A stretch of DNA of 64,000 nt, from NCBI RefSeq assembly GCF_037042905.1, contig NC_087251.1, positions 32,986,001 through 33,050,000 of the forward strand. The letters run 5' to 3'. Origin of the DNA: Lytechinus pictus. Its lineage: Eukaryota. Below, piece by piece: positions 6,301 through 63,224 of this stretch. The notes below the pieces were generated by a model that saw only the letters and a program-made list of their open reading frames with translations, was not told the origin of the DNA and did no database searches. A program made the position numbers and the translations under genes. The first letter of the stretch is position 1. Every line of letters starts with the position of its first letter.

Positions 6301-9300
6301 TTATGGTTAGCATTGGCAAACATACTCGACTATACCTTTGACCTTGATAATGAGACCTGAAATTTATGAAAGATAATCAGTTATCTTTGATAACCCTTAT
6401 GTCCACATTTCAAAGAATAGGTCCATATTTATTTTTTAAAGTTATTAGGACATGGCAAAAAGGTGACCTTGGTTAATATTTCAATGTTGACGCCACTGCC
6501 TATAGTACTGCAAGTAAAGTTAAATGCAGAGTGGACTTATCTAAACAAATCAATGCCTCATACTAGTTTGCTGTGCAAATCCCTCACTCAAAGAAAGTAG
6601 TCTGAATATGAAGCCTAAAGTTCCTGGCTGTGACATGTGCACAGAAGTTCCCTCTTAGTTGCACTTGCACAAGTCTTGTGTGAAGACCCATTGTTGATCA
6701 GTGTAGATCAGGGTCTGTGCCTGCAGACTAGCCTCATACCATACCAACAAGCATAAATTGAGTTTTCTATGACTACAGCATGTTTTGATTAATGGACCTT
6801 TCTTGATGAACTTGCTACATTAGGAGTAATCTCAAAATGAAATCTCCATACACTGGTTTTAAACAACCTTTGTGACTTAGGGCTATAAGGACTCACATGT
6901 AATATTGCACATAAGATGTTATGACATAGCTGAGCATCATGGGTAGAATTCTCCATCAGAGAACAGATAAGAACCACCGACAGCTGTCGAAACCGAGGTA
7001 GGTCTTGAATCAAGGCTAGGTCAAGTCTGTTACGAGAAATGATGCAAAGATTTCTAAACAAACCTACATATTGGAGCAGCTGTATAAGAGTACTAGTTGG
7101 TAAATGAAATGAAGGATATTTTAGTTTAATTGATATCTTATAGAGCTTATAGTATATTAAGGCAAAATGGTGTCCCCCCCAAAAAAAAAAAAAAAAACAT
7201 GCCAAAACAATAAAAAATGTGCAACAAAATAATTTCCAAGAAATATAGAAAATAAGAAATTTCATAAAATATAAATGAATGATTTCCAGAAGAAATCAAG
7301 TCAATAATAGAAAATAATGGAAAATAAAGTCAATACAAATATAAAGGTAAAAGGCAACTGATAATTAATTTGTCTGATTAATAGAATCAAATACTAACAA
7401 AATTATGTATATCTTTACCTGTGTTTTCCATTTTTCAAAAAAGCTTGATATTAATATCTTTGATCTTTATCAAATGTTTATGTGCTTACTCTTGATCAAG
7501 ATGAACTGGTTTGCCGAAGGTGATGGTGAGACAAGCTTCAGCTAGTTCCTGCGTTACAGGATACTGATGAAGCTGATTGGCCAGCTGATGAAAACCTTGC
7601 ATTCTAAGGAAGCTAGACAGCTGGGCTTCGTTAGCACGGTGGAAGTATACATCAAGAAGCTGAACAAAAAAAATAAATGAAGAAATGCAAATGCAAAATA
7701 TCTTGCATACATATTCAAATGCAATGACAGAACTGATATTTTGCTCCAAGATAAGGTTGAAGATACTTTATACATGTACTTGATGAGATAATTCCTCTTG
7801 CAGCTCCAAAAAGTTAAAATAGAATGAACTTTGCTACATGTCGTGAAAGATTGTTGTCATAGTGAAGATCTCTTTTTTACAATAAAAGGAGAGTGCATTG
7901 TGCAAGTAAAAACCTGGATACATCTTAAAGAACAAGAGATCCGGTTGGAGGCTGCAGATTTCTAATAATGGGAAGCGCAGCCTCTTTGATAGTCAAGATA
8001 AAATTGTTCTCTCAGTATCAAAGAGGGGGTTGGTGAAAGTGAGTATAGGAGAGGGGGGCATGGATAGGGGTGGTGGAGAGATGACTGGGAGAGGGGGAAG
8101 GGCACAGATGCATAGACATACACACACATACAAATCAACAAGAGCACACAAAAAGTGAGTAAATGTATTTTTTTCACTGAAAGTTGACATGAGACTTTTC
8201 AATTTGTTATTAGTTTGTAGACAAACATTTTTGTGCATATTTGTGTGCATATGAATACCTAATAGTATGCAAATAATGAATGCTTATGAGTGCAATGGAC
8301 AGAATATTTCATGAGGTGAAAGATGAAATGATCCGCCGAGTTGAATGGATCATTATTTCATCTTTTACCGAATGAAGTATTCTGTCCATTGCACTCATAA
8401 ACATTCATTATTTGGTTTATATGACACCTAAAAATTGATTTCTTAATATAAATTTATGAATTTCGATGCAAAGCATGCTCATGCAGTGCGAGTTTGGTCT
8501 GTTGATTGTTACGTCATTACACCATGCGCACTGCTGGTGCCTGCAGCTGCAGCAGTCTCGGTCGCCGCGTGCAAGGGACAAAATCGTATGGATCCAAAAT
8601 TGCACGGTTGATGACGTCATTGCAAAATGGGCTGAATGAACGATATCAATCAAACAACCAATCAAATCACAAGGATCTATCTAGGTGTCATATAATATTT
8701 GACACCCTACAACTGTGAAAAATCATTATCGGTAGCCGTTGGCTACTGAATTATTTAATTTCCATGGACTTTGTATAGGAACAACCCAGTTCCAGAGGGC
8801 AATGGGTAAAGAATTCTGGCTAACCTTAACAACACTGGTCCGTATCTCTTCCGAGTGATGGTGCGCGATGACGATAAGGGTCTCTGGCTTCAATACAATC
8901 CCCAAGACCTTATCCAACTTGGACTCTGAGATGAAAATGAGACATTCTGCCAGCAGATCCAGCAATCCCGAGCAGAGACGGCTCAATGTGATGTCCCGAT
9001 GGCTGGCATCTAGACTATCAAAGCTTGAGACTACCAAGTTACCATCGTCTTCAATCATGGTGGTTTTGTCCTCAGAGGGTTGGTTCTTGGGATCCGACAG
9101 TGAGTCGTCATCAAGGGGGGAAGTGGCCATGTCATCGTCTGAGAAAGGGGATTCAACGAAATCAAGTTTCTACTATTAATTATTAACAATTAATTATCAA
9201 ATAGAGCATTGATCACCGTGATTTCATTTCAAAGGTTTTCATATATATATCTTTCAACAGTTTAAGAAAAAAAATCAAAAAAAAAAAACCCTTGATCAAA

Positions 9301-18300: not shown

Positions 18301-21300
18301 GTATCAGTATCGGTACAAATAACTTAAATCAAATCGTTATTAGAAAAGAAGATGAATGAATCTCATTTTGTTGATTAATGGACACAAATGTACAAGATTA
18401 TATTTGTGGGTCTTTTTTTGGAACAAATTGATATAATCCACACAAAAGAGAGCACATAATGCAGACAGCATACATAGCAATAATATCAGTCATATTCTGT
18501 TGGCTTTATAAAAGTATTACAATTTTTTTTATACATTTCCTGCAATAGAAACGTGTAGTAGTACAATGATTTTGTCCATGAATTGTGAAGTATTTTAGGC
18601 AAATATACAGAAAAAGAAGAAAGAGTTGGCATATGATAATATAACTAAGTTTTTTATTAAAAGATATCAACAACAAAAAAAAGAGAACAAATTTTTTTCT
18701 TACAGCTGGAGAGTGAGGATGCACTAGATGAGTTTGGCAGGTATCTTGTTCTTGTTTTACTCTTTTTCATCTTCTCTCCCAATTCTCCTTTCCTCCTTTC
18801 TTCCACCTTCAACCACATAGCAACACCCACCCCCTTGTTAAGTGGTACAGTCCATGTTACACTATTCCTGAGAGGTAGCTGTGTTGCAGCAACAGTCCAT
18901 GCACTGATGTCTGGAGTGCTGGAAGACTCCATTTTCATTGGCAGAGGGGTGTTTTGTGTGTTGGAGGGATTGGGAAGGAGTGGAAAGGTGATGGTGGTGG
19001 CTGGCTGGGTGACTGTACTACTGGCTATGGTCAAGAGCGATGATAATAGACAGCTCTGAAAAAAGTTGAAAATCAGGAAAAATACATCTAATTTTTTACC
19101 CTCAGAAATGACTAATAAATGAATTCTTGAAGAGATTGAAACTGACATGACTGTGTCTTTCCAACAGCCTGAATCCAGTCCAGTTAGGTAAATCCATAAC
19201 TCTACTGAGGCAATAAATACTCTTGATGTATGTGCAACAAAAAGACATACCATTTGGCGTATTAATTGAGTGGTATTGAAGTACCCCACTGCTACGTTGG
19301 CATGCGATGGGCAAGTGTCAGAATGTTCAAATTGCCTTGACATCAGTCCACAGTGCATAGTTGCTGGAACGCTGATTACTTAAACCAAGGTCCCAGATTC
19401 AAATCCCAGTTGAGGGAATGTAATTTTTTTCACATTTTTGTTCTCCAAAATTAGTACTGCAGTAGTAATCATGGTTTTTAGGTCTTACCGCTTCCCTCCA
19501 CTTTGGTACTATTCTGTGCATCCCCCTCCTTAATTTCAACCATTACATGAATATCTCCTTAGCCAAAATGGTGTAATACAGATAGAGAAAGATGTAACCC
19601 CAAAGATTAACCATAAGACAGCTTACCATACATGACCATCGTATAGCTTACCATAGGCGATGACGGTGATTGGAATAGGGAAAGATATCCTCTTAACTGA
19701 GATGATGTAATACTCCTCTCAACCAACTCAGAAAATAACTCTAGGAGTAAAGCCCTCTCAACTATGAAGAAGCAGAAACAGATAAAAAGTCACATTTAAT
19801 TATAGGATTAATTAGAGTTAGCTTTAGGAGATTATATAATTCACATCAAATACTTTCATTCAATATTACTACAGAATATATCAAGTAATACCATCTGTTG
19901 TCGACAGTTTTGATTTAATATCCACATACTCTTTACATCAGAGATCTTCTTCAATTCAAAGTTCATGCCAATATTTTCTGTCTTTTTTTTTTTTCTTCAT
20001 TAATTGTTTTTCAGACCACACTCTGTCTTGTAGAGATTGCTTACCACTAGTATCTTGATGGTTATCTTGTAGAATGGTGCGGTATCCATCCAAGATGATG
20101 GTAGGGATCCCACATTGATTCAGACTCGTCTTACAGGAGTCATTACCCTTCACAAGGGAGATGAGTTGATTCAACAGAAAGTAGAGGACTTTCTTCTTAG
20201 CACACCCATCGGTGGTTGAAAGGACCTCTAACATCAGCTGACACACCTACATTAAACACATATTCAGAAAGAATCTCAAACATTTGAACATGTTGTTCAC
20301 ATTCTATTAATGAACATGTCTCATCAGGCCTCTAAGGAGTTGCAAAAAAACTTACTTTCAATAACAAATCAAGTATAAGTCCCAAAATCAAGTACAATGT
20401 GCATTGCAAGAGAGTTGAGTTGAGTTGCAAAATTTGCATTTTGTAATCAAAGGACTTGATTTTCGGATTTGAGCTTGATTTAGAATAGGACATGAGTTTC
20501 TTGTAACACTGCACTGATCTAAGCATGGCAGATATGTATTCACATTCCTATTTATGCAAAATGATAGAATGATGGACAAATCAACTTACTACAAACAAGT
20601 TTGCCTGAAGGGGCATTAAAGGGGGGGGGAGCAATGTCATGAGTAAAAAGGCAGATAGGACAAGAGGCAAAGAATAGCAGCAATGCACTGGGACTGTATA
20701 CACAGAATCTATCTCACTGTCATTAATTCTTAACAATCACAGAGAATACATATTTAAATCTTGTACGTATATATTTAATACAGACATAATTCAAGAGTAA
20801 ATATCACAGAATCTCCCATGAAACCTAATAGCAGCTATGATATTTTTCATGATATTGAAAATATATTTTACAAATAATGAATGTTTATGAGTGCAATGGA
20901 TAGAATACTTCATGAGGTGAAAAATGAAATGATCCATTCAACGAGGCTTAGCCGAGTTGAATGGATCATTATTTCATCTTTCTCCGAATGAAGTATTATA
21001 TCCATTGCACGCATGAAAAAACATTCATTATTTGGTTTATATGACACCTGAAAATTGATTTTTTTTTTTTTGTTCACATGAAATTTATGAATTTCGATGC
21101 ATGAAAATATGCTCATGCAGTGCGAGTTCGGCCTGTTGATTGTTACGTCATTAAAACATGCGCACTGCCGGTGCCTGCAGCTGCAGTCTCGGTGTGCGCG
21201 TGCAATGGACAAAATCGTATGGATCCAAAATTGCACGATGAATGGATCCAAAATTGCACGGTTGATGACGTCATTGCAAAATGGGCTGAATGAACGATAT

Positions 21301-24300
21301 CAAACAACCAATCAAATCACAAGGATCTATCTAGGTGTCATATAAATACTTCTGATGAACTTCCAGATGTTCTTTTATTATTGTTACCATAGCAATCAAG
21401 TACATAATGAATGACCTTTGACACGAACCTCAGGGTAAACCAATGACTGTTGAGATTGAGCAAAAATCAAGTCTTCTCTGTCTGGCTTGTTATCTGTAAT
21501 TAAAGAAAACAAAGTGGGAAATAATATTTGAAATTGGCATGATGTAGAAAATCTGAATGAGAACATTATTTTAGTTTTTTCAGCAGGCTACTGCTGCTGT
21601 AGAAAGAGAATGTCACAGTCAAGGGAGGGCATGACCATTTGTAATCAGAGAAAAGCAAACAGGAATATATGGGAAATTTAAAATGAAAGAATACTCCAGT
21701 GACTGACACTGCTCATATTGTTATCAAATTTCCATAACAGATCACTTTTTAATATGAAAAAAAAAATGCTTTAAATCTTTTCATTATCAAGTTTATCATG
21801 ACCTTTTAATCAATTGTAAGAAACTTTGGATCATAACTGTTTGTTAGGTGACTCAACTTCTATTGTATTTATTTTTTTAACAGCAGGTGGCATGTGCGAA
21901 GAACCGTAAAACTGTTCATGTGAACTATTATGAATACTTCACTAGATCATGGTAAACATGGCTCATACCTTGTTTGACAAAAGACTTGTAAAGCTATAAT
22001 TTTCTGCATCAATATAATTGATTTGCCTATGTTCTCTTCAACAATTACTACATCAACCTTGTTAAACTGAGAAAGACTGTTCAGTAATTTTGCTTCAATG
22101 CACAGATTCCCAAGTCCATTTTGGTGATTTTATTCAAAATATGCACATGAAGGTTCAGTATATCTAGACATCAAACACTGACTGATTTTTGAATTGCAAT
22201 GATTCAAACAATAATACCATGCAGGATACAAAGCTCTAACAGTAGGCCCCATAGCATTCTTTATTGACCTCAATTTACAGTTCTAATCATCAATAGCATA
22301 TTGACAGCACAAGGTGTATACAGTCAAACCTGTGTTTAGTGGCCACCTCTCAATAGCAGCCAGCCACCTCCCTATAGTGACCACTAAAACACACTCCAAT
22401 AGAGGCAGATTGTGTGTATAAGAACCTGGCTATGGCAGCCACCTGTCTATAAAGGCCACATCATGCGTTTTCCTTGGTCACTATAGACAGGTTCCACTGT
22501 AGATCTGGGTCCTGTTTCATAAAGACTCGTTGTAATAACAAATGCAAAAATTCTATATCTAACTGACAATAAGCCAATCAGATTGAAGGATTTCAATAGC
22601 TTATAACTGTTATTGTAATTTGTTACTGAAAGAAGTTTCATGAAAGGGACCAAGAAATAAACTAATACCGAGTGATTCTGCCATCTAGCTAGTTCAGCAG
22701 CAGGCTTTACTAGACCGAATCAACTACTAATCCATTTATGGGGCACTGATGGTAACAATGCCTGTTGCAATGGTTGTAATTTGTACAAGTGGTAATAATA
22801 AACCTTACTTGTTAGTGCATCATCTCTTTCATCTCTCTCGCTGTCGGCCTCATACCCTCCTTCAGCACTCCATAGATCACTCATCTCACTGCTTTGGTCA
22901 TCAGAGGCTTCTTGGAGCTCCTCAAGATTCCAACTTAATCCATCTACACTATCATCCTTAGGCTGGGTAAGAACAAATAGTGTTTTCATTAAACCATGAA
23001 AAATTGAAAAAATATAGCTCATTTTAATACTTGAAAATTCTTGCTTTTTTATATTACTCTCATCCTCAGTTTGTCGAGAAATATACAAAAATCCAAATAA
23101 TCCTTACTATAAAATTTCCTCTTTATTCCTATGAAACATCCTAAATATCATTTAGAATTATTGTAACCATGATGCCTTTTTTAAGTCTATACAGTTGAGT
23201 CTGCCGGAGTTGATAAATTGCCAAAGTCAATTGTCTTAGTTTGATTTCTAAACTTAAATTTGAACAAACTTCTGTGGTTACAAAAGATTTGACTGAGACA
23301 GACTGATCTGTTCTCTGCAAAACGTGAGATCGTGCCATTATGCCAAGTACAAGCATAAGGAAAAATATTGGGCATCTTACATAATACTTTATATTCCAAT
23401 CACTTGTGAATTCATATCTTTAATACTTGATGAAACACCAAGACCCATGTAACACTGAAATTCAAGATTGATTGCTGGGCTAAAATCTATGACTGATTCC
23501 ATTAATAATATGTGCAATCAATTGCATTTATTGATTGCGTGAACAATCACTAATCTTTGTGTTACAGTACCCTGTCCTAGAGCCCTCAACACAAAGCTTA
23601 GCAATCATCATAGAAGAATATCTTTACGATTGATTGCATTGACTACAATGCACAATCAATCGTGAAAATCAAGTGTACAATCAATCGCTATCCTTGTGTT
23701 ACAGGACCCCGGTCTGTCTTTACAATGGGCTAGCATACTTACTGAATTCCTTGAGAGGCTACAGATCTGATACTGTGATGAGTCTAGGGGTTCTAGTTGG
23801 GCCAGCTTTAGCAAGGTATCAGCTACAGTTCTACCTAGGTTGGATCCTAAGAGGTCTGACTCAGTCAAGTGATGCTTCACACTCCGAAGAATGAGGCTCA
23901 TCCCTTCTCCCTTAAATGAAAACATAAATTATGAAATAATATCATAGCACGTGGTGCACCTCAGGCAGTCTCACCTGGATTACACTATTCAATATAGAAG
24001 CAGTACTACTTTGACAATGAAAATAGAATAATATTCACAAAAAACACCAATCATATGATAATAAATACTAGGTTCATTGACCCTAAATGACATTTGACCT
24101 TGATCGTGTGACCAAGGACTTGTGCAAGATGATCATCGATACTTAATCACTCTTTATGTACCTAAAATTTACCTAATGGTTTGGACATAAGATAAGTTTT
24201 AAATGTTAGACTGATCTATAGTCTTTTAGTTTAGTTGGAAGACTGTTACATAGATGGAAAGCATCAGATGCAAATGTGTGATCTCCCCATGACCGACTGG

Positions 24301-30300: not shown

Positions 30301-33300
30301 CTGGTAGGAAGTGGTTGTCCGAAGAAAAGCCGTCTTCTTGCGGTAGACATCATGGGTAAGATGAGAAGCCATTGCTGTAGGTGAGTCTAGTTGACTGGTC
30401 TGTCTTAGGTTCTGTCTGGCAGGAAAGCACGTCTCCATCGGTGGCACCAGAGTGCCCACATCTGCAAGAACAATAAAGGAAAAGGTATTCCTGTTAAGAG
30501 TACTGCTGGGCAGGAAAGGCTTTTTTTCTTCTTGAATAAACAGGAAATATATACTCATGTAGTAGCTACATCCCTTTACTCAACAAATAAAACTCTCTTT
30601 CCATTAAAAGGTCACATGCTTTCTCAAAAACAGAGAAAGAGCAAGAGAGAGAACGAGAGAGGGGACAGAGGGGTACAATGGGAAGGATTGTATATTGTGA
30701 ATCTGCCTCTCATGCAGGTGATGCACAACAATAAGCACCAAGATCTCTTTTGCTTCCTGTTACTTGTGATGAAAAATGATGTTGGAAATGTAGACCTCCA
30801 CCAAATATAATGTAAATACAAACCAAAAAATAATTTGAATATTTTGATAATATAATTGAAGATGACATATCCCATTACTTTCAATTTGAATTTTGAATAT
30901 AAAAATGTAAAAAAAAAATCCTTCAATTATGATTTTAGTAGGAATCTCACTGAGAATCTGTTATTTCTTGGTAAATAAATAAATTTAGTATCACAAAGCA
31001 ATAAAATCCAATGTGCAGTGAAATGATTCATGGCTTTTAAAAAATACATTATGAAGGCATTTCTCAATATTACAACAGAAATTTCATGGTCTATATTGTT
31101 TGTTCACAATGGTGCATCCAAAGAAAGTGTCTAATCCGGATAGATATCACGGTGAACAATTGGCCGTTTTGTAGCCATTTTCTAGGGATTTTCCCTCCCT
31201 TTTTATTGTCAGTTTACAGTCCTTTTAAAAAATGGCTAGCAAAATGGCAAATTTTGTCCAATTAAATTTCTCCATACACCACTATTCTAAGCTTTGAAGA
31301 GCATAGACTATAGGGTCTGGGATATAATTATGGGAAGCCAGAAATATCAATCATTTCTGAACCCCTTATGCTTCAGTAAGTTTACTGGGATCTTTCCCTT
31401 GATTTAATGGTGAAGAAAGTCATTGTATAGATCATTTCAAAATGGTTTACAATGCTCTGAGTGCAAACTATGATGATAAATTGAATGATCAGGTAGTTAT
31501 GGAGATCCACGTCACATTTGGCACCCCATAGTCAAAGTACAACTTTAGACAAGAATTTGAATTTTGAAAATAATACCCATTGGGTTTTAGTTCATGAAAC
31601 TGCTCTGAATCTGCAAATTTTTTTCCATTTTGCACCACTAATCTTTATGGTTCAAAGCATGAGATATACTCAGGCTTGGTTTATAGGTTATACTGAACTA
31701 TGTCAATGCTTGTACATATAAACAGTATGCAAAAGGGTACAGGTAAATAATCAGGCAAAAAAAATATATTTTTCGCAACTTACTGCCTAAGTCTGCAACA
31801 TTATAAAAGTTGTAACATTCAAATGAATGGGGATTTCCAGGGCTCCTTCTTGAGTTTGAATGGCTCTTTTGAGCACTACTTTAGGGGCTAAATCACCCCG
31901 AGCCCCCATGCATTTCTTTCTGAGGCCCTATATTATAACCCTGATAACTTATATTTTGTATGTTATAAGTACATATATATGCACATCCATAGCCTGCCAA
32001 TACCATGTTTGTACAAGTATGTAAATCAATAACTCTCAAGCAACTCTCTGGTCATGTTTGTCACATTCATCACTTTGCACTCTACAATGTACATGTACCT
32101 TTAGTCCAGGATAGAAGGGGTCGAACCTTGTTTTTTTAGATATACAATGTTTTTTTATGGTTTCTTGTCAATTCGAGGGTGCTGATTCCGAATCTGAATG
32201 ATGCCACTCGTGTAACCTTGAGCATTTTCTGCAAATTGGAAAAATCCAATATGGCTGCCAAAATATTCAAATTACCCATGAAAATCATAAAATTGTCCAC
32301 GCATTGGCTGTAAAGTACATGCAATTGTGCTGCCGGAGTGAAATAATATCTGAAAAAAAATATTTGTTACAAAATATTTATTTTCTTGATATTCAAAATG
32401 GCCGCCATAGACCCCTGTACAATATGAATGGGGAAAATTAATTTTCACAAAAGTGCCAGCTCTGAAATGCAAGTAATAATGATCTATGAGGGAAGTAATG
32501 TCTGAAAACATGATTGCTAATGATATATATCATTTGTTATGTCATGTATGTGATAAATCCTGTATTTTGATATTCAAAATGGACTCCAAAAGCCCTAACA
32601 CTATTATGTACAATGTGAATGGTGAAAAAAAAAATAACAAGAGTGAACACTAAAATGCATTTTGTTAAGATTAACGAGTGGAATACTGACTAAAAAACAT
32701 TATTGTTAGCGAAATTTATTATTTAACATGCCATGTATGTGATAAATCCTGTATTTTGATATTTAAAATGGCCGCCAAAGGCCCTAAAATTATAATGTAC
32801 AATGTGAGAGAGGACAAAAACAATCACAAGGTGAGCGCTAAAAACACATGTTTTTGTGGTAAATTAGTGGAATACTGCCTTAAAATATAATTGTCAACGA
32901 AATATATAATTCGGGATTCATGTTTGTGTAAAATATTGTATTTTGACTTTCAAAATGGCCGCCAAAGACATTGACTGTATTATGTACAATCGATCTGGGA
33001 AACCAATTTTCACAGGAGTCAGCACCATAAAATTCATATAATTGTGATCTAAGAGTAAAGTATTGTCTGAAAACATAATTTATAACAAGATATATCATTT
33101 ATTCTGCCAGGTAAGTGATAAATAATGTATTTTGAAAGTCAAAATGGCCGCTACAGGCCCTAACTGTAGGCCTATTATGTACTATGTGAATGGGAACATA
33201 TAATTTGACAGAATTTGGCTCAGTTACATGCTTGACTAAATGGTGTTGCATGTTTGAGTGAAATATCGTCTGAAAATATGATTTCTTATGAAATAGATCA

Positions 33301-36300
33301 TTTCTTATGTTATTTAGGTGATAAATGCTATATTTAAAATTCAAAATGGCTGCAATATGCTTTTTTTGTGGAAATTATCGTTCCCCATTCAAATTTTACA
33401 TATTTAGATAAGGGACTATGACGGCCACTTTTCAATTTCAAAATGCAGCATTCATCACCTTTATGGCACAAGCTATGATATATTTCGTTAGAAATCATTG
33501 GGCTTAGACAATACTTTACACTTACATCAAAATTAAGCATTTTTTTATAGTAAAAATTATCTGTCCCCAGTTACAATGTACATACTACTTTGGGGTCCTA
33601 TGGCAGCCATTTTGAATTTCAAAGTAAGGCCTTTATCACCTTCTCGACCAATATGAGATGTATTTAGTTATAAATCATGTTCAAGACAATATTTAACCTG
33701 TACATCACATAGTTACGTGCGTTTTTGGTTCTCATTCTGGTGAAAATTATTTTCCCTATGTGCATGTTACATAATTTAGTCAGGGCTTGTAGCGGCCATT
33801 TTGATAGTCAAAATACAGTATTTATTACCTACATGGGAGAGGAAATGCTATATTTCATAAAAATCACGTTTTCAAACAATATTTTCCTTATACAACAGAA
33901 TTATATGGATTTCATAGTCAGGCAAATCCTAATTCTTTTAAAATTATTTGTCCCCATTTACATTGTAGATAATAGTGTAAGTGCCCATAGGGGCCATTTT
34001 GAATTTCACAATATAGCATTTATCTCATGCATGACAAAGGAAATTATATGTTTCAATAGAAAACATGTTTTTAGAGAATTTTTCACTCGTAGATAACAAT
34101 TACATTCATTTTATTGTTCTTACTCTAACCTTGTGAAAATTAGTTTCTTCATTCGCTTTGATACAAATAGGGCCTATGGCAGCCATTTTGAATGTCAAAA
34201 TACAGCATAATTACCGAAATGGCAAGGGAAATGATATGTCTCGTTAGAAATCATTGTTGTCAGACATTGTTACACCAATATTTCACAATTGTTGGCATTT
34301 TATAGTCAAGCAAATTCAAATGTGAAAATTACTTGTCCCCTTTTATATATTGTACATGTATACAGTATAAGGGGTCTATGACAGCCATTTTGAATATCAT
34401 AATACAGCATTTATCACGTTAGATAGTATAAAAATGACATAGTTTTGTTAATAATCATGTTTTCAGACAGAAGTCCACTCGTGGGTCACAATCACATGCA
34501 ATAATAGTGCTCTTGTTCAAAAATTATTTTTCCTATTCATATTCTACATAATAAAGTATACAGGTGCTTATGGCGGCCATTTTGAATATCAATGAAATCA
34601 ATATTTTGTCAAATATCGCTTTTCCAACGAGTATTTCACTTCTGCACAACAACTACATGTACATGCATTTTATGTGTGGGCAATTTTATGAATTTCATGG
34701 GTAATTTGCATATTTTGGCGGCCATATTGGGTTTTGCCAATTTGCCGAAAATGCTCAAGGTTACAAGAGTGGCATCATTCAAATTCGGAATCAGCACCCT
34801 CGAATTGTCAAGAAACCATAAAAAAACATTGTATATCTAAAAAAACAAGGTTCAACCCCTTCTCTATGGGGCCTATCATGGACTACTTTGGTTCTATAGA
34901 AATGCACTGTGTAATTTGCCTACTGCATTGATCTGAACAATTCTATTGACTTTTCTTCCACTACATTGCAAACAATGGGCTTCCAGACACCAGACCATGA
35001 ATGCGATCTTTGATGCTTTCAGATGAACTGAGATAATTGTGATACAGTATATTGACTATCCTCTACAATACAAATATCCAGTATTTAGTTTATAAAAAAA
35101 AAGAAGCAAATTTTAACGATCCAGGGCAGCATCAATGTTAGCATTTCAACACAAGGTTTCACATACATTATTGTTAAGTGCTCTCTCCCCCCAATATAAA
35201 ATATGTACAAATACGTAGATATGACCATCCGATTGTTATTTTCTATAGGGTCAGCGCCCCCCCCCCCCCCCACTTTCAAAACCATTCCGTGGACCCTGGA
35301 TACTGTACATTGGACTACCCTCAACAAATATCCATTATTCGCGTTAAAACCCCCACAAACTTTCAACGATCCAGATTCTAGAGTATCATCAATGATGGGC
35401 TAGGTAATAATATTTCAATACAGGGGTTCAAATGTACATTATTGTTTGGACTCGTGCCAGGTTGACCTGGGTAAGGTCACACACAGATCATTTCTCCTCA
35501 CATGTATGGAAAGTTTGACTCAATACAAAACTATTACTTTTGAGCTACATGTATTTAACTTGACTTGAATTCATTGCACCGATTCTAAATACACACAAAC
35601 GTAGCACTAATATTAAATATTATTCAAGAGAACTGTTTTTTTATGAGCACTCCACAAATTAATGCAAACATCTCTGTAAAATTGGTTTGCTTTCAGATCA
35701 TAAACTAAGCAATCAATCTCAAACAGTTTGTAGAAAACAAAATTATTCAACAAGGTTTATCATGAAGGGTGTCGGCAAGTGTTCCGACTTCCGAGAAATA
35801 TGAGTTTGGCTTTCATGGTTTTCTATTCAATTCAAATCAAAGTTCAGTATTAAAGAAGGATGAGAAAGAAATGATGTGCATAACTTTTTTTCTAGTCCTC
35901 TTTTACTACATGTATTTTACGAAGAAGAAAGTTACTTTTCAGGAATTGGGTAGTATACACAATGAATGGCAAATGAAGCTGATCGAGAATTTTGCTTTGC
36001 AGGTATTCCAAATTTATGAATCCTCTGAATATTTTAAAACTCATTCTTAATCAAAATTGAGCAAATTTCACCAAAGTGACCAAACTATTTTTTTTCTTCT
36101 GGAATACATGAAACGAAACCCCAACCAACTTTAACTGATGATCTTCCCTTTAAATCAAGTTGTGAACTTCCGTTTAGTAGTAGAGGTCATCACCTTACAG
36201 TCCAAAGGTATAGGAAAGGAATATTTAAAGCACTAAAAGGTAGTGCATCAAATTCAAGCAATGGAATATACAGTATATGCTTACATTGTATGTGCTACTT

Positions 36301-39300
36301 GTATCAAAATACCGTCAGACCAGCCAAAATATCACAAATTATATCCCTTACTTAAGATTGTTGTATTGTGAGTGTACACAAGGAGAAAATGAATAGTTTT
36401 ACTACGGAAAACGTTTGCCATGAAATAGTTCATTTTCCTTGCTGACGTCACGCATAGTCCATTTTTTCCCTAGGGAAAAGTGAACTATACGTTTTTTGAC
36501 CCCCCCCCTACCTCGCGATTCGCGAGCTGTGCGGCGCGATGCGAGCAGAGCGCTGCTCAGCCAAACGGTACTCTCCACTGCATGCCACGGGAAACTTTCG
36601 GCGAGCTGCACTTACCAGGTGCGCTCGCCGAACACTGATCCATACGGCAAGACTTATTATTTTCTCAACGATTGTTCTATATCGACTTATTAAAAATCGT
36701 TTTGCTGTAAAATGGTATGAGTGGAAGGGATATAAAACAAATATACAATGACCCATTCTCGGAACAGGCCGAGGGAGAATAGTACTATGTGATGTTCCTT
36801 CGATGCGAATAGTTTTAGCCAGATCCTCGAGTGTCATTGTATATTTGTATACTATGCACCGACAGTTGTGCTCGATAGTTAGTGAACCCCACCACAAAAT
36901 GCACTCATTCGTTCTCTGAGTGTTGAATGTAGACAGCCACACTACAATGTTTGGCAAGCCCAGAGAAACACAATTTATTGAATGTAATATTTTATCACCT
37001 TTACTTCACAATCAAATATCTCAAACATGGCATAACATGAATGTAAATGTTCATTTTCTGGTAGGGTTCACCAACTGTTGAGCACCACTGTACATGTACA
37101 TGTACATGTATATGCATGCGAGCATCAAAGAGGCCAAAATTTGGGACTGAATTCCAAGCCCCCTGGATCAAAGCAACAACCAGCATCATTTTTACAGGAA
37201 ATAGTCTGAATTTTTCAGATCTGAGCATGAAAGCTATTGCAGGGAGTAGGTTCACCATGGAAACCAGCCTTGAATAGACCGAACCCATTTTCACAATGTA
37301 AAGCAATACTTTCATAGAACTTTATTTGTTAATTAATATGATTTATTTCGATATGAATATAGATTTTGCAAGGATTAAATCACTACAGATGGAATGGTAC
37401 AATAGTGGCCAATAACTAGTCTGCTGCGCAAACCCTTCACTCGAGTAAAGGGTCTGAATTGCAGCCTACTCATGCATTGTGTACTGAAGGCCCTCTCACT
37501 TAGGAACAGCCAGCAAGTTTTGTATGTGCTAGTCTTTGCTTGGAGACACATTTGTTGATCAAAGTTTCAATCAGGGTCTGTGCCTGCAGACTAGCCAATA
37601 ACTAAACAATGAGACAAAAAATGTATTTACATTCAGTTTCAAAGTTGTTGTAGCAATATCATTTTCCCGAGCAACCATATTCATTTAAGTTAAGAAATAA
37701 TGTAAGCCACTTTTCGGCTTCTTACTACTAGAGGAAGAGGATGACAAAGGGCTACCCATGTACAGGAAGAATTACCATCCTGTCAATATTTCCTGTAAAA
37801 AAATAAAATACCCTCTACAAGTATGTTTTTCACGTGATCACTCTCTTTCCAGACTTGTCATTTTCTTCTCCCATAATAAACACGTATGATAGCCTGGGCT
37901 ATGAAAACTCTTTAGTGCACAATGGTTGGAGAGTTCAGGTTTTGGATATTTAACTACTTTTTGTCAGCTAGAATGTGAATGAAATAAATCTTGATATTAA
38001 TGGCGCAGTCACATTTCCTCTACGGCGGTCATACGGCGAGTCAAAAGCAGCCGTTGTAACATTTTTGTAATAGCTACATACAGGTGGTTTGAATATAACA
38101 GCTGTTTTCGACTCGCCATACAGCCACCGTAAGGGAAATGTGACTGCACATTAATCTTAAATTTCAAACACTAGAATTTAATTGAGCAAATTTGTTCAGA
38201 ACCAGATTAAATATCAATACTGTGATCACTGTGTAAGCATCATACAACTCTTTGGAAGGATCAATGAGACTTTATTTTCCATTAATGTGTAATGAATGCA
38301 AACTGGGTTCGAGTATTGTTTATCATTAAGAGAAATAATTCACTAATAGGCCCCATGAAACAAAATGTCCCCTAAATTTAAATCCCCAAAGATGCCTTAG
38401 TCAACAAACAAAATCAAGGATATCATTTTTCATTCTTCTTCCAAAATGCTAAATAAAACGTCTTATACATTTCATGTACTTCTGGAATGGACATCTATAT
38501 CATTATTAAGGATCTCCATTAGATCTCAAAACCAGGAGCTAAAAGTTTAAATTTTCTGAATTAGGGATATCATTTATTATCAAACTTTAATATATTGTTC
38601 ATTCTTCTTCAAAAACGCAGTTAACAATAATAATCATAAATCATAAAATGTACTCACTTTCGGATTGGACATCTATATCATTATTCAGAAAGTCCATTAT
38701 GATGAACAATCTCAAAACCGGGAGCTCAAAGTTTCAATTTTCTGAATGAGGCAATCATGACAAATCTTCCTATCTGCTAACATCCATTAATACAGTATGT
38801 TCATGTAGGCCTATCTGGTATAATCAGCACGGGTAAATCAGTTCAATCCAAGACATATCACATCATGTACATGGAGCGGATCCACCCATCAAGGTATCAT
38901 CTTCATAATTAAACATGTACCACTGTATAACACTACCATCCTCTCAATTTATATCAAAAGATGTAGATCAAATCAAAATGGTAGAAGTCCACTTTCTCAG
39001 CACAAAGCTGGCAATTCACTGGCAAAGGCATGGTCAGACAGTCAATCACTGAAATCTTACATCAGAGATGGGATTACAAAATGATATAAGCCTTGCATTA
39101 TATACATAATTTTTTTTCTCAGAGTAAACATATGAAGAGAACCTACAGACCAAAGTACGATCATTTTAAACATTGACACGGGGAGGCGTATCAAGCTAGT
39201 AGAAGGGGGAAAGAGACACCAGCCCATAATTCTGGAATTTGGTTTAGCTTTTAATAAGTGGTTTCAGACTTTCAAGTAGCCAAAAAATGTGAGTTATAAT

Positions 39301-42300
39301 TAGAGTTCAGAATATATGGGCCATAGAGTTTAATTACTTATCCGATGTATTTTTGATCTACCGTAGAATGAATAGTGAACCGATTTTGAAAAAAAATAAC
39401 TGAGCTGAACTAAATGAAACTGAAATGAAATGATTTGTATTTGAATTTTGATGATATGGAGAAAGGGTGCTTTGAAGTTAGTCTGCAGCAAAGACTCTAA
39501 TTTGACACTTTCTGCATATATATCTAGACTATTTAGTGGAGACTACGCTCAAAACTCAATGGAAGAAGCAGTCAAAGAATTGAATCTCATCTCCCTACTC
39601 CAGACCCTGCATTATGCAATTTGCAAGAATCAAAGGTATAGTTTTTAGTGTCATATATCATAATAAGGTGTAAAGTACTGTTTATTATATTGTAAAGTTG
39701 TTGGATTAACATGTACTATGCTGTATATTGATTGTATTTATTTGTATGCAAACTATGCATGGTACGCTTTTCAAATAAGGAAAGTACACATTCTTATTAT
39801 CATTTCGAACGTGCATGAGCAAATATGACTCCAGAAAAAATGAACTTTGAAGTTTACAGCAATCGCACAGAGCTGATAAAACTCAGAGGGGTATTTAAAA
39901 TGAAGTATTACATACATAAATATAGAGTAAACAATGGTTTGAAAACCAGTTCAAGAGGCTGTGTGGACTACCCGTTCATAAAAATACCTGTAAATTATAA
40001 ATTCAAATTATTGATGCCTTGTAACACCTGATGATTATTTAAGCCAAATCTATAAAATGTTTCATTCTGGTTAATCTGTAGGTTTCAGGTGCTTTTTATC
40101 AAAGTAACTTTAAAGAAAATCACTATCTCATCTTGGCTTGGATTTTCAAAGAATCCTATTTACAGACAAATTAATATTCCTTCAATCTTTAATGTGCACC
40201 TGGGTATATTCCTTACTACTTAAAGGTCAAGTCCACCCCAGAAAATTGTTGATTTGAATCGATAGAGAAAAATCAAACAAAAATAACGCTGCAAATTTCA
40301 TCGAAATCGGATGTAAAATAAGAAAGTTATGACATTTTAAAGTTTCGCTTATTTTTCACAAAACAGTTAAATGCACAACTCGGTGATATGCAAATGAGAG
40401 TCGATGGTGTCCATCACTCACTATTTCTTTTGTTTTTTGTTTGAATAATACAATATTTCAATTTTTACAGATTTGACAATAAGGACCAACTGAACTTAAC
40501 CATAAACTGTTAAAATAATGGTAATGCCACATGTTCAGGGAGAAATAAAACTTTGTTTCACTTGACGAGGAGAAAATTAGAATATTTCATATAATAAAAT
40601 ACAAAAGAAATAGTGAGTGGGTAACGTCATCAGTCTGCCAATTTGCATATCGACCAGGATGTGCATATAACTGATTTGTGAAATCAAGCGAAACTTTAAA
40701 ATGTCATAACTTTCTTATTTTACATCCGATTTTGATGAAATTTTCAGTGTTTCGCTTGTTGGATTTTTCTCCTTTTTTTCAAATCAACTTTTTGTTGAGG
40801 TGGACTTGTCCTTTAATAAGGAATCATGTTCTCTGCATCTGAAAACTTTACAATGCAAAACTTTATCTGTGGCTGTTGCCACTACGGTACTGCTATTTGT
40901 TTTACATTTGCTTTTTTTTTTTGGGGGGGGGGGCTGAGGGGTTGGGGGTGTTTGGGGTGGGAGGTTTATTAAGAAGGAAGTGTCTTTTACATGTACATAC
41001 TGTATATATAGACTTTTTATCAAACTTCACTCATCCTCATCTGTCCACCTTCAACTCGCAAATGGTCCTTGAACCCAGACCCGCTAGTCCTCAAACCCAG
41101 ACCCTCTACGGTGATCAATTAGATTGAATACCTACCTTTTTAATCAGTAATAAATCATAGTAATTTTTGTTGTTACTAGTATTTGATATATTATTCTTTG
41201 TAATTTGTTAAATAATCCTCCATGCATTTTTCCTTTAATTTTTGGTAGTGTTAAGTTTATATTATTTTGTATTTCATTAATTCTATCTAGCTCTTCAACT
41301 CATTTGTTTAAAGGGTATCTAGCGCTTAAGACAATGCGTATTATTTGCTTTAAATGTTATTACTTATCATATACATGTAGGCCTATAAACATGCATGATG
41401 TGATGGAGGGACTGTTTCTCAATGACAACCTCAATGACGAACAGTTCCTCCAGAACTAACAGGGTCCTCAAGAAGAGATTTGTAATTTTAGGTATTGACT
41501 GAGACTCTACCATGTAGACCTGTATATAAGGATAGGTATACATGTAAACATGAGGCCGTTCTCATTACGCTTTCTAAAACTAGTTTACTGGAAACCGATT
41601 CAGGAAACCACTTTGGAAGATCGCTTTGCGAGCGTTCCCACTTGATCACACGAAAGTGGTTTTCAAAATCACTTCACGTAAAGAGCTCTTGTTGCTATGG
41701 AAATGCTCTCAGTGGGGTGACACGTTTCGCGCGAAATTCGAAACCGCAGCATAGGCATTCTACACCTGTCATGTGGAGTAGCGCGCTCAAAATGTGCGAA
41801 GATCGCTTCCCGAAGAACGGTTGTGTCCTCACTTACGCTAAAACCAGTTTAACGAGGCAAAGCAATCTTCAAAACTACATCGCAAGGTGGTTTTCCAAAC
41901 TGGTTTGGAAGATCGCTTCCAAGACCGCTTCGACTGTTCTCACTACGCGTTAAACTAGTTTCCACTAAACTAGTTTCCAGTAAACTAGTTTTAGGAACGT
42001 AGTAAGAACAGCCTCCATGATGAGGCCTTGTAAGGAAGTAGGCCTATATCCCTTGTCACACTGCAGACTTACCATGTACTAAGAAATGTATCAAACAATA
42101 AAAGTTATGATGAATACGAAAATAGGAAACAAAATTAAATGTGGACGTTACTTCTTTTTTCTACTTTTTTTTACAAGCAAATAGGAACAAACCCCCTCTG
42201 ATAACCTTACATACATATTCCAATCCAGTAGATAAATATAATTCCAGAGTTCTCAAATTTATGGTGACCCAAACTAGGTTATGACATGAGCCAGGTGTGT

Positions 42301-62116: not shown

Positions 62117-62679
62117 AGGGTACTCAGGGCTGAAAATATCCATTAATGACAATCAATGTACAATTTACAGAAATGCTGAAAATTTTGTCAAAATCTGACA
62201 ACAACTAGCGTTATCGAATTTTAAAGTTTAGCAATACTGTGAAAACAGTGAAATGCGTATATCGTCATGAATATTCATTAGGTGGGCTGATGATGTCACA
62301 TCCTCACTTTCCGTTTTCATTATGTTATTACATGAAATCATAATTGTTCCATTTTTTCATTCAATGAAAATAATGAATCTAATGCACTAAATCAATTGTC
62401 ATTCCAACTTTTGGGGTTCTTGAAGGAAAAAATTTAAATAAACCTAATTTCATATGTAATACGATACAAAAGAACAAGTGGGGGATATTACATCATAAGT
62501 TTGCTCATTGAATATTCATGAAGACATGCCTAGAACTGTTTCACCAGAATAATGCAAATCTTTAAAATGCCATAACTTTGCTTTTCCTTGTCCCAATTTC
62601 GATCAAATTTTCAGTGTTTTGTTTGTCTAATTTTTCTTTATCTGTTCAAATCATATTATTTTCAGCCTGGAGTACCCCT
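62117..62679. mobile_element. Kolobok-type MITE related to K2
   Basis: AGGGTACTCAGGGCTGAAAAT...ATTTTCAGCCTGGAGTACCCCT|TTAA; interior homologous to 59822-60424. Confidence 0.8.
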
Positions 62680-62889
62680 TTAACAATCAAATAAACTGGA
62701 TGACTATTCATACAAAGTGGAATAGAACCTTGTTCTGAAGATAATTAGTCAAATAATCGGCAGACCAGTGAGAATTGTGTCTTGATTTATTTACGACTGA
62801 CATTGTTATCATATCTTTATTCTCAATTACTTTAAAAAAAAAACAACCTTACAGTATTTCATCAAATGATGTATCATAGGCCTACTTAC

Positions 62890-63087
62890 GGGAGATCGGG
62901 ATTGATAGTAATTTTTAATTTTCTTTAACGCCTGTAAAATAAATTTATGCAATACTGCCCTCAATTTATTGCTATTAATAATACAACAGTAAATTGAGGG
63001 CAGTATTGCATAAATTTATTTTACAGGCGTTAAAGAAAATTACAATGTTTCAACTTACCCCGCGTTCCAACAAACCCTGATCTCCCC
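62890..63087. repeat. Foldback made of two left ends of the 47258 transposon family; perfect 53-bp stem
   Basis: 62916-62968 is the exact reverse complement of 62990-63042. Confidence 0.9.
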
Positions 63088-63224
63088 TACACTGAATTGT
63101 ATCATAGGCTTACTTACACTGTTCTTGACTGTTGACCAATTTATCTTTCAAGAACAGTTTAAAATTGATACAAGAGATTAAAAAGGGGAAATACAAAATA
63201 ACAATGTTTTATCCTTGGGAATTT

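What the first reader, a model, noticed from the sequence alone, without database searches (positions are those of the whole stretch)
36339..36847. Two unrelated repeat families share an A..A'-NN-B..B' double inverted-repeat architecture (tyrosine-recombinase-type logic?)
Seen: this element reads TTATATccctt...aagggATATAA, a 2-nt spacer, then CAAATAtacaatgac...gtcattgtaTATTTG. The family at 8270-8695 and 20871-21345, read on the minus strand, is TTATATgacacct...aggtgtcATATAA, a 2-nt spacer, then CAAATAatgaatg...cattcatTATTTG. The interiors show no visible homology, yet the hexamers and spacer length are identical. The two outer ends are not inverted repeats of each other and I see no clear TSD, so these are not ordinary cut-and-paste MITEs. 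Joining the outer ends in a circle (TATTTG-NN-TTATAT) would recreate the reverse complement of the internal junction. Known: DIRS internal complementary regions and Crypton tyrosine-recombinase elements use end-matching logic of this kind with circular intermediates. Inference: non-autonomous members of a YR-mobilised class with a conserved recombination-site code. They may already be catalogued as Crypton-like repeats.
Basis: partly seen in the sequence, partly recalled or inferred. Interest (0 to 1): 0.72.

Follow-up and report, generated by a model that had tools for sequence, protein, structure and literature searches.

The report
Hairpin-ended non-autonomous Crypton transposons
These repeats are gene-less copies of a small animal jumping gene that moves with a cut-and-rejoin enzyme, and their shared end structure looks built to fold as one particular single DNA strand, which suggests a testable way these poorly understood elements move.

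Summary
The pattern occurs 3 times in the window against 0 in simulations. A metagenome scan with the end code gave 24 loci, 19 of them related hairpins. One, L024, is a complete 2,035-nt element with the same A..A'-NN-B..B' layout around an intact tyrosine-recombinase/DUF3504 ORF. The 8270 and 20871 copies are homologous to both ends of L024, so they are non-autonomous CryptonA-type elements. The 36339 copy is a high-copy sister family linked only by end code and hairpin design. Corrections: the right end runs 4 nt further (TATA) and is followed by host N-TAT, so the internal junction is 2 nt shorter than the end join. The hairpin is strand-asymmetric: 23 of 31 tandem mismatches are TC/TC (GA/GA on the antisense strand), and DNA mini-hairpin loops sit on the antisense strand only (7 against 0 of 22). 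The best mechanism, inferred and untested, is integron-attC-like recombination of folded antisense ssDNA. My literature searches found no description of this layout, but this scan already noted it on other DNA of this genome and of another genome.

The parts
36339..36851 (+). E1: non-autonomous element, 513 nt; right end extended to include the conserved TATA
   Evidence: (depth step at 36339; other copies start at 36338)
36339..36349 (+). E1 arm A (left end, begins T-TAT)
   Evidence: score reached by 1 of 100 shuffles
36725..36735 (+). E1 arm A', inverted copy of A
36736..36737 (+). E1 2-nt spacer AA (AA in 20 of 22 hairpins, AC in 2)
36738..36847 (+). E1 terminal hairpin B..B', 110 nt, with a TC/TC mismatch at 36759-36760 / 36827-36828; the left arm of this copy appears to lack about 35 nt
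   Evidence: 44.2 bits, E 7.5e-7, model built without E1; table 5c (one contig has 40 extra letters between 36766 and 36772)
36848..36851 (+). E1 conserved 3' tail TATA (element end, inferred)
36852..36855 (+). Variable base plus TAT: inferred host target half-site
   Evidence: flank contigs leave the window sequence at 36342
8266..8695 (-). E2: non-autonomous CryptonA-type element, 430 nt; followed by C-TAT at 8265-8262
   Evidence: (70% over 119 nt at the 5' end, 78% over 190 nt at the 3' end of L024)
8682..8695 (-). E2 arm A
8417..8430 (-). E2 arm A'
8270..8414 (-). E2 terminal hairpin, 145 nt; apical loop deleted, one TC/TC mismatch kept
20867..21345 (-). E3: non-autonomous CryptonA-type element, 479 nt; followed by A-TAT at 20866-20863
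   Evidence: (70% over 168 nt at the 5' end, 84% over 187 nt at the 3' end of L024)
21333..21345 (-). E3 arm A
21037..21049 (-). E3 arm A'
20871..21034 (-). E3 terminal hairpin, 164 nt (same length as in L024), two TC/TC mismatches kept

Best explanation
E1-E3 are non-autonomous CryptonA-type DNA transposons, moved in trans by a tyrosine recombinase (YR) like the one in L024. Shown: the architecture, the homology of E2/E3 to an intact YR element, the ends, and the strand asymmetry of the hairpin. Inferred: the right end works like an integron attC site. The antisense strand folds as ssDNA, for example during replication. CAAATA/TATTTG forms one binding box, a small unpaired asymmetric spacer follows, and A' supplies the second box. 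In the chromosome that second box can pair with only 3 nt of host DNA (TAT); once the ends are joined it pairs fully with arm A. The YR exchanges one strand between the folded right end and the left end, which releases a circle carrying a complete folded site. That site recombines with an AT-rich host N-TAT site, and replication resolves the one-strand junction, so copy number can rise. Confidence is about 0.93 for the class (E2/E3), 0.85 for E1 and 0.55 for the folded-ssDNA mechanism; the figure below is for the mechanism.
For: Autonomous partner: L024 has A (30-bp inverted repeat), a 421-aa ORF, A'-AA and a 164-nt hairpin followed by TATA-C-TAT. Its protein hits Pfam phage integrase (31.9 bits, cut-off 27.1) and DUF3504 (27 bits, cut-off 29.7), has 225 homologs, the named ones from echinoderms, molluscs, a coral and a fish, keeps its catalytic residues in 39 aligned sequences and has a Cre/Xer fold (Z 16.6). 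A and A' change together across families: significant in 9 of 21 testable loci, at spacings of 73-1,862 nt. Hairpin: 18 of 38 pairs show double-sided changes, 93% of cells pair, and 0 of 500 shuffles reach this. 23 of 31 isolated 2x2 mismatches are TC/TC, none GA/GA, in 12 of 22 hairpins; the antisense strand folds more stably in 18 of 22. GCGN(N)AGC lies on the antisense strand in 7 of 22 hairpins (6 exactly at the apex, five loop variants) and on the sense strand in 0; this motif is an exceptionally stable DNA mini-hairpin and much weaker in RNA (PMC13037366). Joining the ends extends the antisense fold by 5-24 kcal/mol in 6 of 6 elements tried (partly expected by construction). attC sites share this logic: bottom-strand hairpin, unpaired central spacer, conserved triplet, 5'-GAA-3' terminal loop, replicative resolution (PMC5027507). 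Active CryptonF both excises cleanly and gains copies (PMC9977147).
Against: Nothing here shows ssDNA, circles or cleavage. No contig joint from the element's end back to its start appeared among the 15 joints shown (52 not shown). Only one autonomous element was seen, and it is from a marine metagenome, not this genome; two scans for more found none. 15 of the 19 outside hairpins come from one assembly, so the counts are not independent events. The search pattern fixed the outer stem letters. Arm-to-arm correction of palindromes can create covariation without selection (established knowledge), although it should erase the TC/TC mismatches rather than keep them. The YR model is closer to Cre and XerA (Z 16.6, 16.5) than to the integron integrase (Z 13.0). 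E1 has no alignable interior with L024. None of the three window copies retains the GCGN(N)AGC loop. 12 of 21 testable loci show no significant A arm (short contigs or truncation, not resolved). The exact exchange point is uncertain within about 4 nt.
Confidence: 0.55

Rival explanations
1. CryptonA moving by the classical double-stranded Cre/lambda-like route (the Goodwin model). A, A', B and B' are duplex binding sites; the internal junction is an accessory or dimer-resolution site; the palindrome only extrudes as a cruciform or is incidental.
For: This is the standing model: a circular dsDNA intermediate (PMC13565253; PMC3212892). Starship YR elements form circles that integrate (bioRxiv 10.64898/2026.09.21.753150). 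The fold is closest to Cre. Some ends show an imperfect ATA-N-TAT direct repeat (E2, L014).
Against: It gives no reason for strand-specific TC/TC mismatches at three fixed positions or for an antisense-only mini-hairpin loop. The gaps between hexamers (2 and 4 nt) are short of the 6-8 bp typical of YR sites, though cuts could lie inside the hexamers. Conservative excision alone does not explain hundreds of copies.
Confidence: 0.22
2. An ssDNA intermediate exists, but the hairpin is a replication signal (a primase or second-strand origin, or nuclease protection) on the excised antisense strand. The YR then recombines a double-stranded circle, as in copy-out elements such as bacterial SEs.
For: The same mini-hairpins mark phage ssDNA priming sites and resist SSB and nucleases (PMC13037366). 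[quoted passage not shown]
Against: The most conserved letters lie at the stem base next to the exchange point, not at the apex. The apex is lost in E2 and absent from one sister family, and minimal 204-232-nt elements keep the base. No flip/flop isomers are seen (0 GA/GA), which argues against rolling-hairpin replication.
Confidence: 0.14
3. DIRS-like route: the element is reverse-transcribed in trans; the antisense strand is the cDNA, and the internal junction acts as an ICR that rebuilds the ends.
For: The structured strand is the antisense strand, and DIRS-1 makes antisense single-stranded cDNA, needs its ICR and is flanked by a trinucleotide (PMC7192593).
Against: L024 has no RT. The mirror of the left end is only 11-35 nt and is 2 nt short of the join, so it could not restore a promoter region lost from a transcript (inference). 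Fungal CryptonA elements show widespread intron gain (PMC13465315).
Confidence: 0.05
4. Helentron/Helitron2 non-autonomous elements (HINE/DINE-1 type): subterminal inverted repeats plus a 3' stem-loop, moved by Rep-helicase.
For: The outline is similar: 12-15-bp subTIRs and a 3' palindrome (PMC4067079; PMC3627910). Two earlier scan notes filed similar hairpins this way.
Against: The only full-length relative encodes a YR and nothing else. The palindrome is 110-164 nt against 5-10 bp. A' lies more than 110 nt from the end against 20-60. The flanks are N-TAT, not TT.
Confidence: 0.04

Closest known systems
CryptonA elements of animals and their non-autonomous derivatives (CryptonA-2_SP, CryptonA-1_OL with 1N1/1N2; Kojima and Jurka 2011, PMC3212892)
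   Same: Single YR/DUF3504 ORF, no C-terminal domain, about 2 kb (1,248-2,289 bp in supplement 1), no TIR pair at the two ends, no TSD, abundant 350-550-bp non-autonomous copies.
   Different: That paper states that no terminal repeats were found in animal Cryptons ('n.d.' for all CryptonA). Here there is a conserved A..A'-NN-hairpin layout, a TATA-N-TAT end and a strand-asymmetric fold. The Repbase sequences could not be compared.
Integron gene cassettes and attC sites (PMC5027507)
   Same: Imperfect hairpin on one strand; two boxes separated by an unpaired spacer; one box completed by the far end of the cassette; a conserved triplet next to the exchange point; purine-rich unpaired bases and a GAA-type loop on the structured strand.
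   Different: Eukaryotic; carries its own recombinase; no attI platform or arrays; triplet TAT instead of AAC/GTT; tandem GA/GA pairs rather than single extrahelical bases; the enzyme is not closest to IntI; ssDNA use not shown.
DIRS-1 retrotransposons and their internal complementary region (PMC7192593)
   Same: YR; an internal sequence complementary to both termini; a trinucleotide at both flanks; antisense strand implicated.
   Different: No RT or gag; the internal mirror is short, sits at the base of the terminal hairpin and is 2 nt shorter than the join, whereas the 88-bp ICR is an exact complement.
HINE / DINE-1 / Helitron2 non-autonomous elements (PMC4067079, PMC3627910)
   Same: Asymmetric inverted repeats followed by a 3' hairpin; no TSD.
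   Different: The partner is a YR, the hairpin is more than ten times longer, and the target is N-TAT instead of TT.

Membership tests
CryptonA | Autonomous partner encodes one tyrosine recombinase / DUF3504 protein and no RT or DDE enzyme | tested here: met
   L024: one 421-aa ORF; PF00589 31.9 bits (above cut-off), PF12012 27 bits (just below 29.7), PF11917 weak
CryptonA | Catalytic R-H-R-Y residues | tested here: met
   R171, H291, R294 invariant; K204, H317, Y326 at least 90% conserved in 39 sequences
CryptonA | No C-terminal GCR1_C domain; length about 1.2-2.3 kb | tested here: met
   No other Pfam family; 2,035 nt; published lengths
CryptonA | Non-autonomous copy shares both ends with an autonomous element (E2, E3) | tested here: met
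   5' E 3e-8 and 6e-12; 3' E 5e-38 and 3e-53 against L024
CryptonA | Non-autonomous copy shares both ends with an autonomous element (E1) | tested here: inconclusive
   Only 14-nt exact matches at the junction and the right end; covariance model built without E1 scores it 44.2 bits in the right orientation against 23.5 reversed; no partner found
CryptonA | No terminal inverted repeat pair and no target-site duplication | tested here: met
   Ends T-TAT and TATTTG-TATA are not inverted copies; the base before the right-hand TAT varies (C9 A8 T4 G1 of 22) while the left one is T in 9 of 9
Crypton (fungal/oomycete definition) | 4-6-bp terminal direct repeats | tested here: not met
   Only TAT is shared (exact in 13 of 22 right flanks). 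Animal Cryptons were reported without such repeats, so this does not exclude CryptonA
CryptonA | YR groups with Repbase CryptonA in a phylogeny | not tested
   Repbase sequences not available; homologs are named KIAA1958-like or ZMYM-like in echinoderms and QRICH1 is the top Foldseek hit
Crypton | Extrachromosomal circular intermediate | not testable with these tools
   Only assembled contigs were available
Helentron/Helitron2 (HINE) | Rep-helicase partner | tested here: not met
   The only full-length relative found encodes a YR; the whole genome could not be searched
Helentron/Helitron2 (HINE) | 5-10-bp 3' palindrome, with the 3' inverted repeat 20-60 bp from the end | tested here: not met
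   Hairpins of 110-164 nt
Helentron/Helitron2 (HINE) | Insertion into TT / T-rich sites | tested here: not met
   Right flanks read N-TAT
Helentron/Helitron2 (HINE) | 12-15-bp asymmetric (subterminal) inverted repeats | tested here: met
   11-14 bp in E1-E3, up to about 35 bp in relatives
DIRS-like | Reverse transcriptase / gag | tested here: not met
DIRS-like | ICR exactly complementary to the circle junction | tested here: not met
   Internal spacer 2 nt against 4 nt in the end join in 6 of 6
Integron attC (works-like only) | Imperfect hairpin with one strand favoured | tested here: met
Integron attC (works-like only) | IntI-type integrase | tested here: inconclusive
   VchIntIA chain 2a3v Z 13.0 (rmsd 7.3, 245 aligned), below Cre Z 16.6 (rmsd 7.3, 294 aligned)
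Integron attC (works-like only) | Recombination of folded ssDNA, one strand exchange, replicative resolution | not testable with these tools
   Needs biochemistry
MITE (cut-and-paste) | TIRs at both ends and a TSD | tested here: not met

The most novel reading that the evidence does not exclude
Animal CryptonA transposons are self-mobile eukaryotic counterparts of integron cassettes. Their tyrosine recombinase reads a folded antisense ssDNA hairpin, picks the strand by tandem G.A pairs and a GNA/GNNA mini-loop, exchanges one strand next to a TAT triplet and leaves resolution to replication. A sequence-tolerant structure code then lets unrelated interiors share one enzyme class.
Probability: 0.5. 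Interest if true: 0.85.

Novelty: new variant of a known kind. Interest (0 to 1): 0.62.

Why it matters
A 2026 review says the Crypton transposition mechanism has not been shown experimentally (PMC13565253), and animal Cryptons were described as having no terminal repeats. The end code defined here gives boundaries, a target consensus and a named strand to test with short oligonucleotides and one 421-aa protein. If the folded-strand model holds, structure-specific ssDNA recombination, as known from integrons (PMC5027507), also runs in animal nuclei. That would offer an explanation for how a recombinase-only element gains copies, and a starting activity for the domesticated DUF3504 proteins (KCTD1, KIAA1958, ZMYM). 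In practice the hairpin test should reclassify repeats that look like Helentron HINEs.

Tried and rejected
No whole genome is held, so no genome-wide count or in-genome partner search was possible. IMG/VR scans: family pattern 0 hits; loose pattern 7 hits, all chance, with no stem and no A arm; protein profile 0 of 21 candidates. GTDB scans: profile 0 of 63 candidates; E1 pattern 0 hits. Of 24 metagenome hits I dropped 5 before counting: L015, L016, L025 and L026 (prokaryote- or virus-like coding DNA, stems of 6-7 bp) and L030 (a 16-bp stem, but spacer TT, no TATA-N-TAT and no match to L024). Laying contigs did not show an empty-site joint: 15 of 67 joints and 24 of 968 loose ends were displayed, the neighbouring MITE dominated the lists, and 37096-37149 had no cover in three of four runs. 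E1's right boundary is therefore taken from the cross-family consensus. Only 4 of the 16 listed runs were laid. Sequence look-ups in earlier findings returned nothing. The covariance-model hit at 62919-63049 (36.5 bits) is a different palindrome without the end code; the hits at 26680-26798 and 37987-38174 also lack it. The hits at 12572-12852 and 32941-33802 in the architecture scan come from other repeats. The structure search gave no specific link to integron integrase or protelomerase (TelA Z 6.6). Pfam and PDB did not name the host gene. MITE, Helentron, DIRS and rolling-hairpin readings were rejected for the reasons given under rivals.
Full report
1. Observation. I call them E1 (36339-36847, plus strand), E2 (8695-8270, minus) and E3 (21345-20871, minus). 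The junction ATATAA-NN-CAAATA occurs 3 times against 0.06 expected. The full four-hexamer pattern occurs 3 times against 0 in 150 simulations; the patterns were picked after the fact. A scan for any adjacent pair of inverted repeats finds these three and two unrelated repeat clusters. E2 and E3 are one family; E1 does not align with them beyond the ends. They lie between exons of a large minus-strand gene that I recognise from memory as LYST-like; the Atlas gives LYST only as a lead at 0.87.

2. E1 is a mobile repeat. No genome was held, so I laid contigs of 4 of 16 listed runs on 35800-37400. Depth rises about 200-440-fold between the bin left of E1 and the first bin inside it in X1, X5 and X6; the tool warns that this is not a copy number. 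Two contigs from other copies align from 36338. In X5 and X6 the only contig covering the left flank aligns up to 36342 and then continues for 129 other letters; the distance-to-end values for X1 point to the same stop. I read these as alleles without E1 (inference; the letters were not shown, and the runs hold only 4-14% of the words, so they may be other individuals or a close species). A stop at 36342 fits an empty site ending in TAT followed by the G of the right flank.

3. Relatives. E1 and E2/E3 share more than hexamers: CAAATA-NNN-AATG ... CATT-NNN-TATTTG. A metagenome scan with this code returned 24 loci. I kept 19 and dropped 5 (see Tried and rejected). Fifteen of the 19 come from one assembly. 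L024 is a complete 2,035-nt element: arm A, one intronless 421-aa ORF, A'-AA, a 164-nt hairpin, then TATA-C-TAT. The protein hits phage integrase above the Pfam cut-off and DUF3504 just below it. It has 225 homologs, many from echinoderms and molluscs and named KIAA1958-like or ZMYM-like. It keeps R171, K204, H291, R294, H317 and Y326 and folds like Cre and Xer (pLDDT 80.8). E2 and E3 match its 5' end (70%, E 3e-8 and 6e-12) and its 3' end (78% and 84%, E 5e-38 and 3e-53). E1 shares only 14-nt exact matches at the junction and at the right end. A covariance model built from 17 hairpins without E1 ranks it as the next locus after E2 and E3, at 44.2 bits in the expected orientation and 23.5 reversed; an unrelated palindrome scores 36.5, so this margin is modest.

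4. Ends. After TATTTG the 22 hairpins continue TATA (79 of 88 letters), one free base (C9, A8, T4, G1) and TAT (52 of 66 letters; exact in 13 of 22). None of this was in the pattern. Left ends read T-TAT in 9 of 9 elements listed. An inverted copy of A' was significant upstream in 9 of 21 testable loci and borderline in one; it was not found in the rest. I infer that the element runs from T-TAT to TATTTG-TATA and that N-TAT is host DNA resembling arm A, so there is no true duplication. The exchange point is uncertain within about 4 nt.

5. The hairpin is built for one strand. In 17 aligned hairpins 93% of cells pair and 18 of 38 pairs have double-sided changes; 0 of 500 shuffles reach this and slid controls give 35-44%. 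Relatedness and palindrome self-correction can inflate such counts. More telling are the imperfections. Of 31 isolated two-by-two mismatches, 23 are TC opposite TC, none is GA opposite GA, and they recur near positions 22, 48 and 77. On the antisense strand these read GA/GA, which can form tandem sheared pairs (own knowledge). E1 has one at position 22. A contig in X6 carries 40 extra letters that, by eye, are the missing left arm of E1's hairpin (35 of 41 positions match the reverse complement of 36779-36819), with a second TC opposite 36800-36801 (table 5c). The motif GCGN(N)AGC lies on the antisense strand in 7 of 22 hairpins and on the sense strand in none, in five loop variants. It is an unusually stable DNA mini-hairpin with a sheared G.A pair and is far less stable as RNA (PMC13037366, passages). 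None of the three window copies keeps it. The antisense strand has the lower folding energy in 18 of 22. The lead to look for GA/GA pairs and this loop came from an earlier scan note (e1-7811539).

6. Mechanism. Shown: class, ends, target consensus, strand asymmetry. Inferred: the antisense strand folds into an attC-like site with two boxes and a small asymmetric spacer. The second box is completed by 3 nt of host DNA in the chromosome and by arm A after end joining, which lowers the folding energy by 5-24 kcal/mol in 6 of 6 cases. One strand is exchanged and replication resolves the junction, as described for integrons (PMC5027507, passages). This would fit active CryptonF elements that excise cleanly yet gain copies (PMC9977147, passages). 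I put this at 0.55. Rivals: classical duplex recombination 0.22; the hairpin as a replication signal of an ssDNA copy-out intermediate 0.14 (PMC10214605, abstract); an RT-dependent DIRS-like route 0.05 (PMC7192593, passages); Helentron 0.04 (PMC4067079 and PMC3627910, passages). Against my reading: there is no direct evidence of circles or ssDNA; only one autonomous example was seen, from another organism; two further scans were empty; and the enzyme is not closest to IntI. The integron analogy was prompted by earlier scan notes.

7. What is known. Kojima and Jurka 2011 (PMC3212892; passages and supplement 1) describe CryptonA and its non-autonomous copies and report no terminal repeats in animal Cryptons. 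The 2026 Glomhopper paper (PMC13465315; passages) finds poorly conserved repeats; 'hairpin' and 'palindrom' do not occur in its main text, and 'palindrom' does not occur in the 2011 paper. A 2026 review says the mechanism is undemonstrated (PMC13565253, passages). Starships form circles (bioRxiv 10.64898/2026.09.21.753150, passages). Searches (listings only) showed no paper describing this layout. Repbase Reports, Dfam, Goodwin 2003 and most subscription journals were not searchable, and the other supplements of these papers were not read, so a curated entry may already note the palindrome. Within this scan the layout has been noted before: e1-7880952, e1-7880953 and e1-7787368 in this genome and e1-7362032 in another. 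Two notes filed similar hairpins as Helentron-like (e1-7811539, e1-7768963). My data point to Crypton if these are the same design; I could not see their sequences.

8. Verdict. The elements are non-autonomous CryptonA-type transposons (about 0.93 for E2/E3, 0.85 for E1) with an end architecture that my searches did not find in print: a new variant of a known kind. Interest 0.62. It makes an open mechanistic question directly testable, but the mechanism is inferred and the element class is known.

Noticed in passing
window 1804-30579 (minus-strand exons, longest 27304-30579): Large multi-exon gene hosting the repeats; looks like LYST from memory. Atlas lead 'LYST (Fragment)' at 0.87; Pfam and PDB uninformative.
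   Followed up: partly
window 36862-37091 and 26158-26383: A very high-copy MITE with about 39-bp TIRs starts 10 nt after E1's inferred end; loose ends of more than 100 contigs per run stop at 36862 with a consensus ending in TAT.
   Followed up: partly
window 8684-8706: E2's left host flank and arm A form a 23-nt near-palindrome, so this target resembles the element's own A' side. One case; may be chance or a target preference.
   Followed up: no
window 8270-8414 and 21216-21260: E2 has lost the apical loop and turned one TC/TC mismatch into a perfect pair, as L020 and L023 did at another position, which suggests arm-to-arm correction. E3 has a 23-nt tandem duplication in its 5' part.
   Followed up: partly
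window 36443-36450, 8612-8619, 21266-21273: All three elements carry TGACGTCA (CRE-like, label recalled) 70-105 nt inside the left end, despite unrelated interiors; it occurs 6 times in the window.
   Followed up: no
window 62870-63116: A different long palindrome (about 62905-63050), flanked by a 20-nt direct repeat with one mismatch 228 nt apart; scored 36.5 bits with the hairpin model but lacks the end code.
   Followed up: partly
window 15552-16159, 40213-40823, 60425-61030 (related 59857-60382, 62171-62686): About 600-bp MITE family with long TIRs ending CCTTTAA; TTAA-target type, Kolobok-like by recall.
   Followed up: no
window 32113-34863: Foldback element with 192-nt arms (94% complementary) and internal 189-bp tandem units in both orientations; further inverted pairs at 48923-50310 and 55760-59550.
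   Followed up: no
window 12541-12948: Tandem 274-nt units with palindromic modules that trip the double-inverted-repeat scan.
   Followed up: no
P0014: A toadfish protein is 72% identical to the L024 recombinase over 72% of its length but has lost the second Arg and the C-terminal motifs; close relatives are otherwise echinoderm. Possible horizontal transfer, untested.
   Followed up: no
P0007, P0022, P0025, P0038, P0050 and others: Many echinoderm proteins named KIAA1958-like or zinc finger MYM-type-like are probably Crypton transposon ORFs rather than domesticated genes.
   Followed up: no
L010 and L031: Minimal elements of 204 and 232 nt with only about 70 nt between A and the junction; natural test substrates.
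   Followed up: partly
L019 right flank: The 9 letters at the element end recur 13 nt downstream, a small duplication seen in this copy only.
   Followed up: no
window 11132-11350: GAT-type microsatellite.
   Followed up: no
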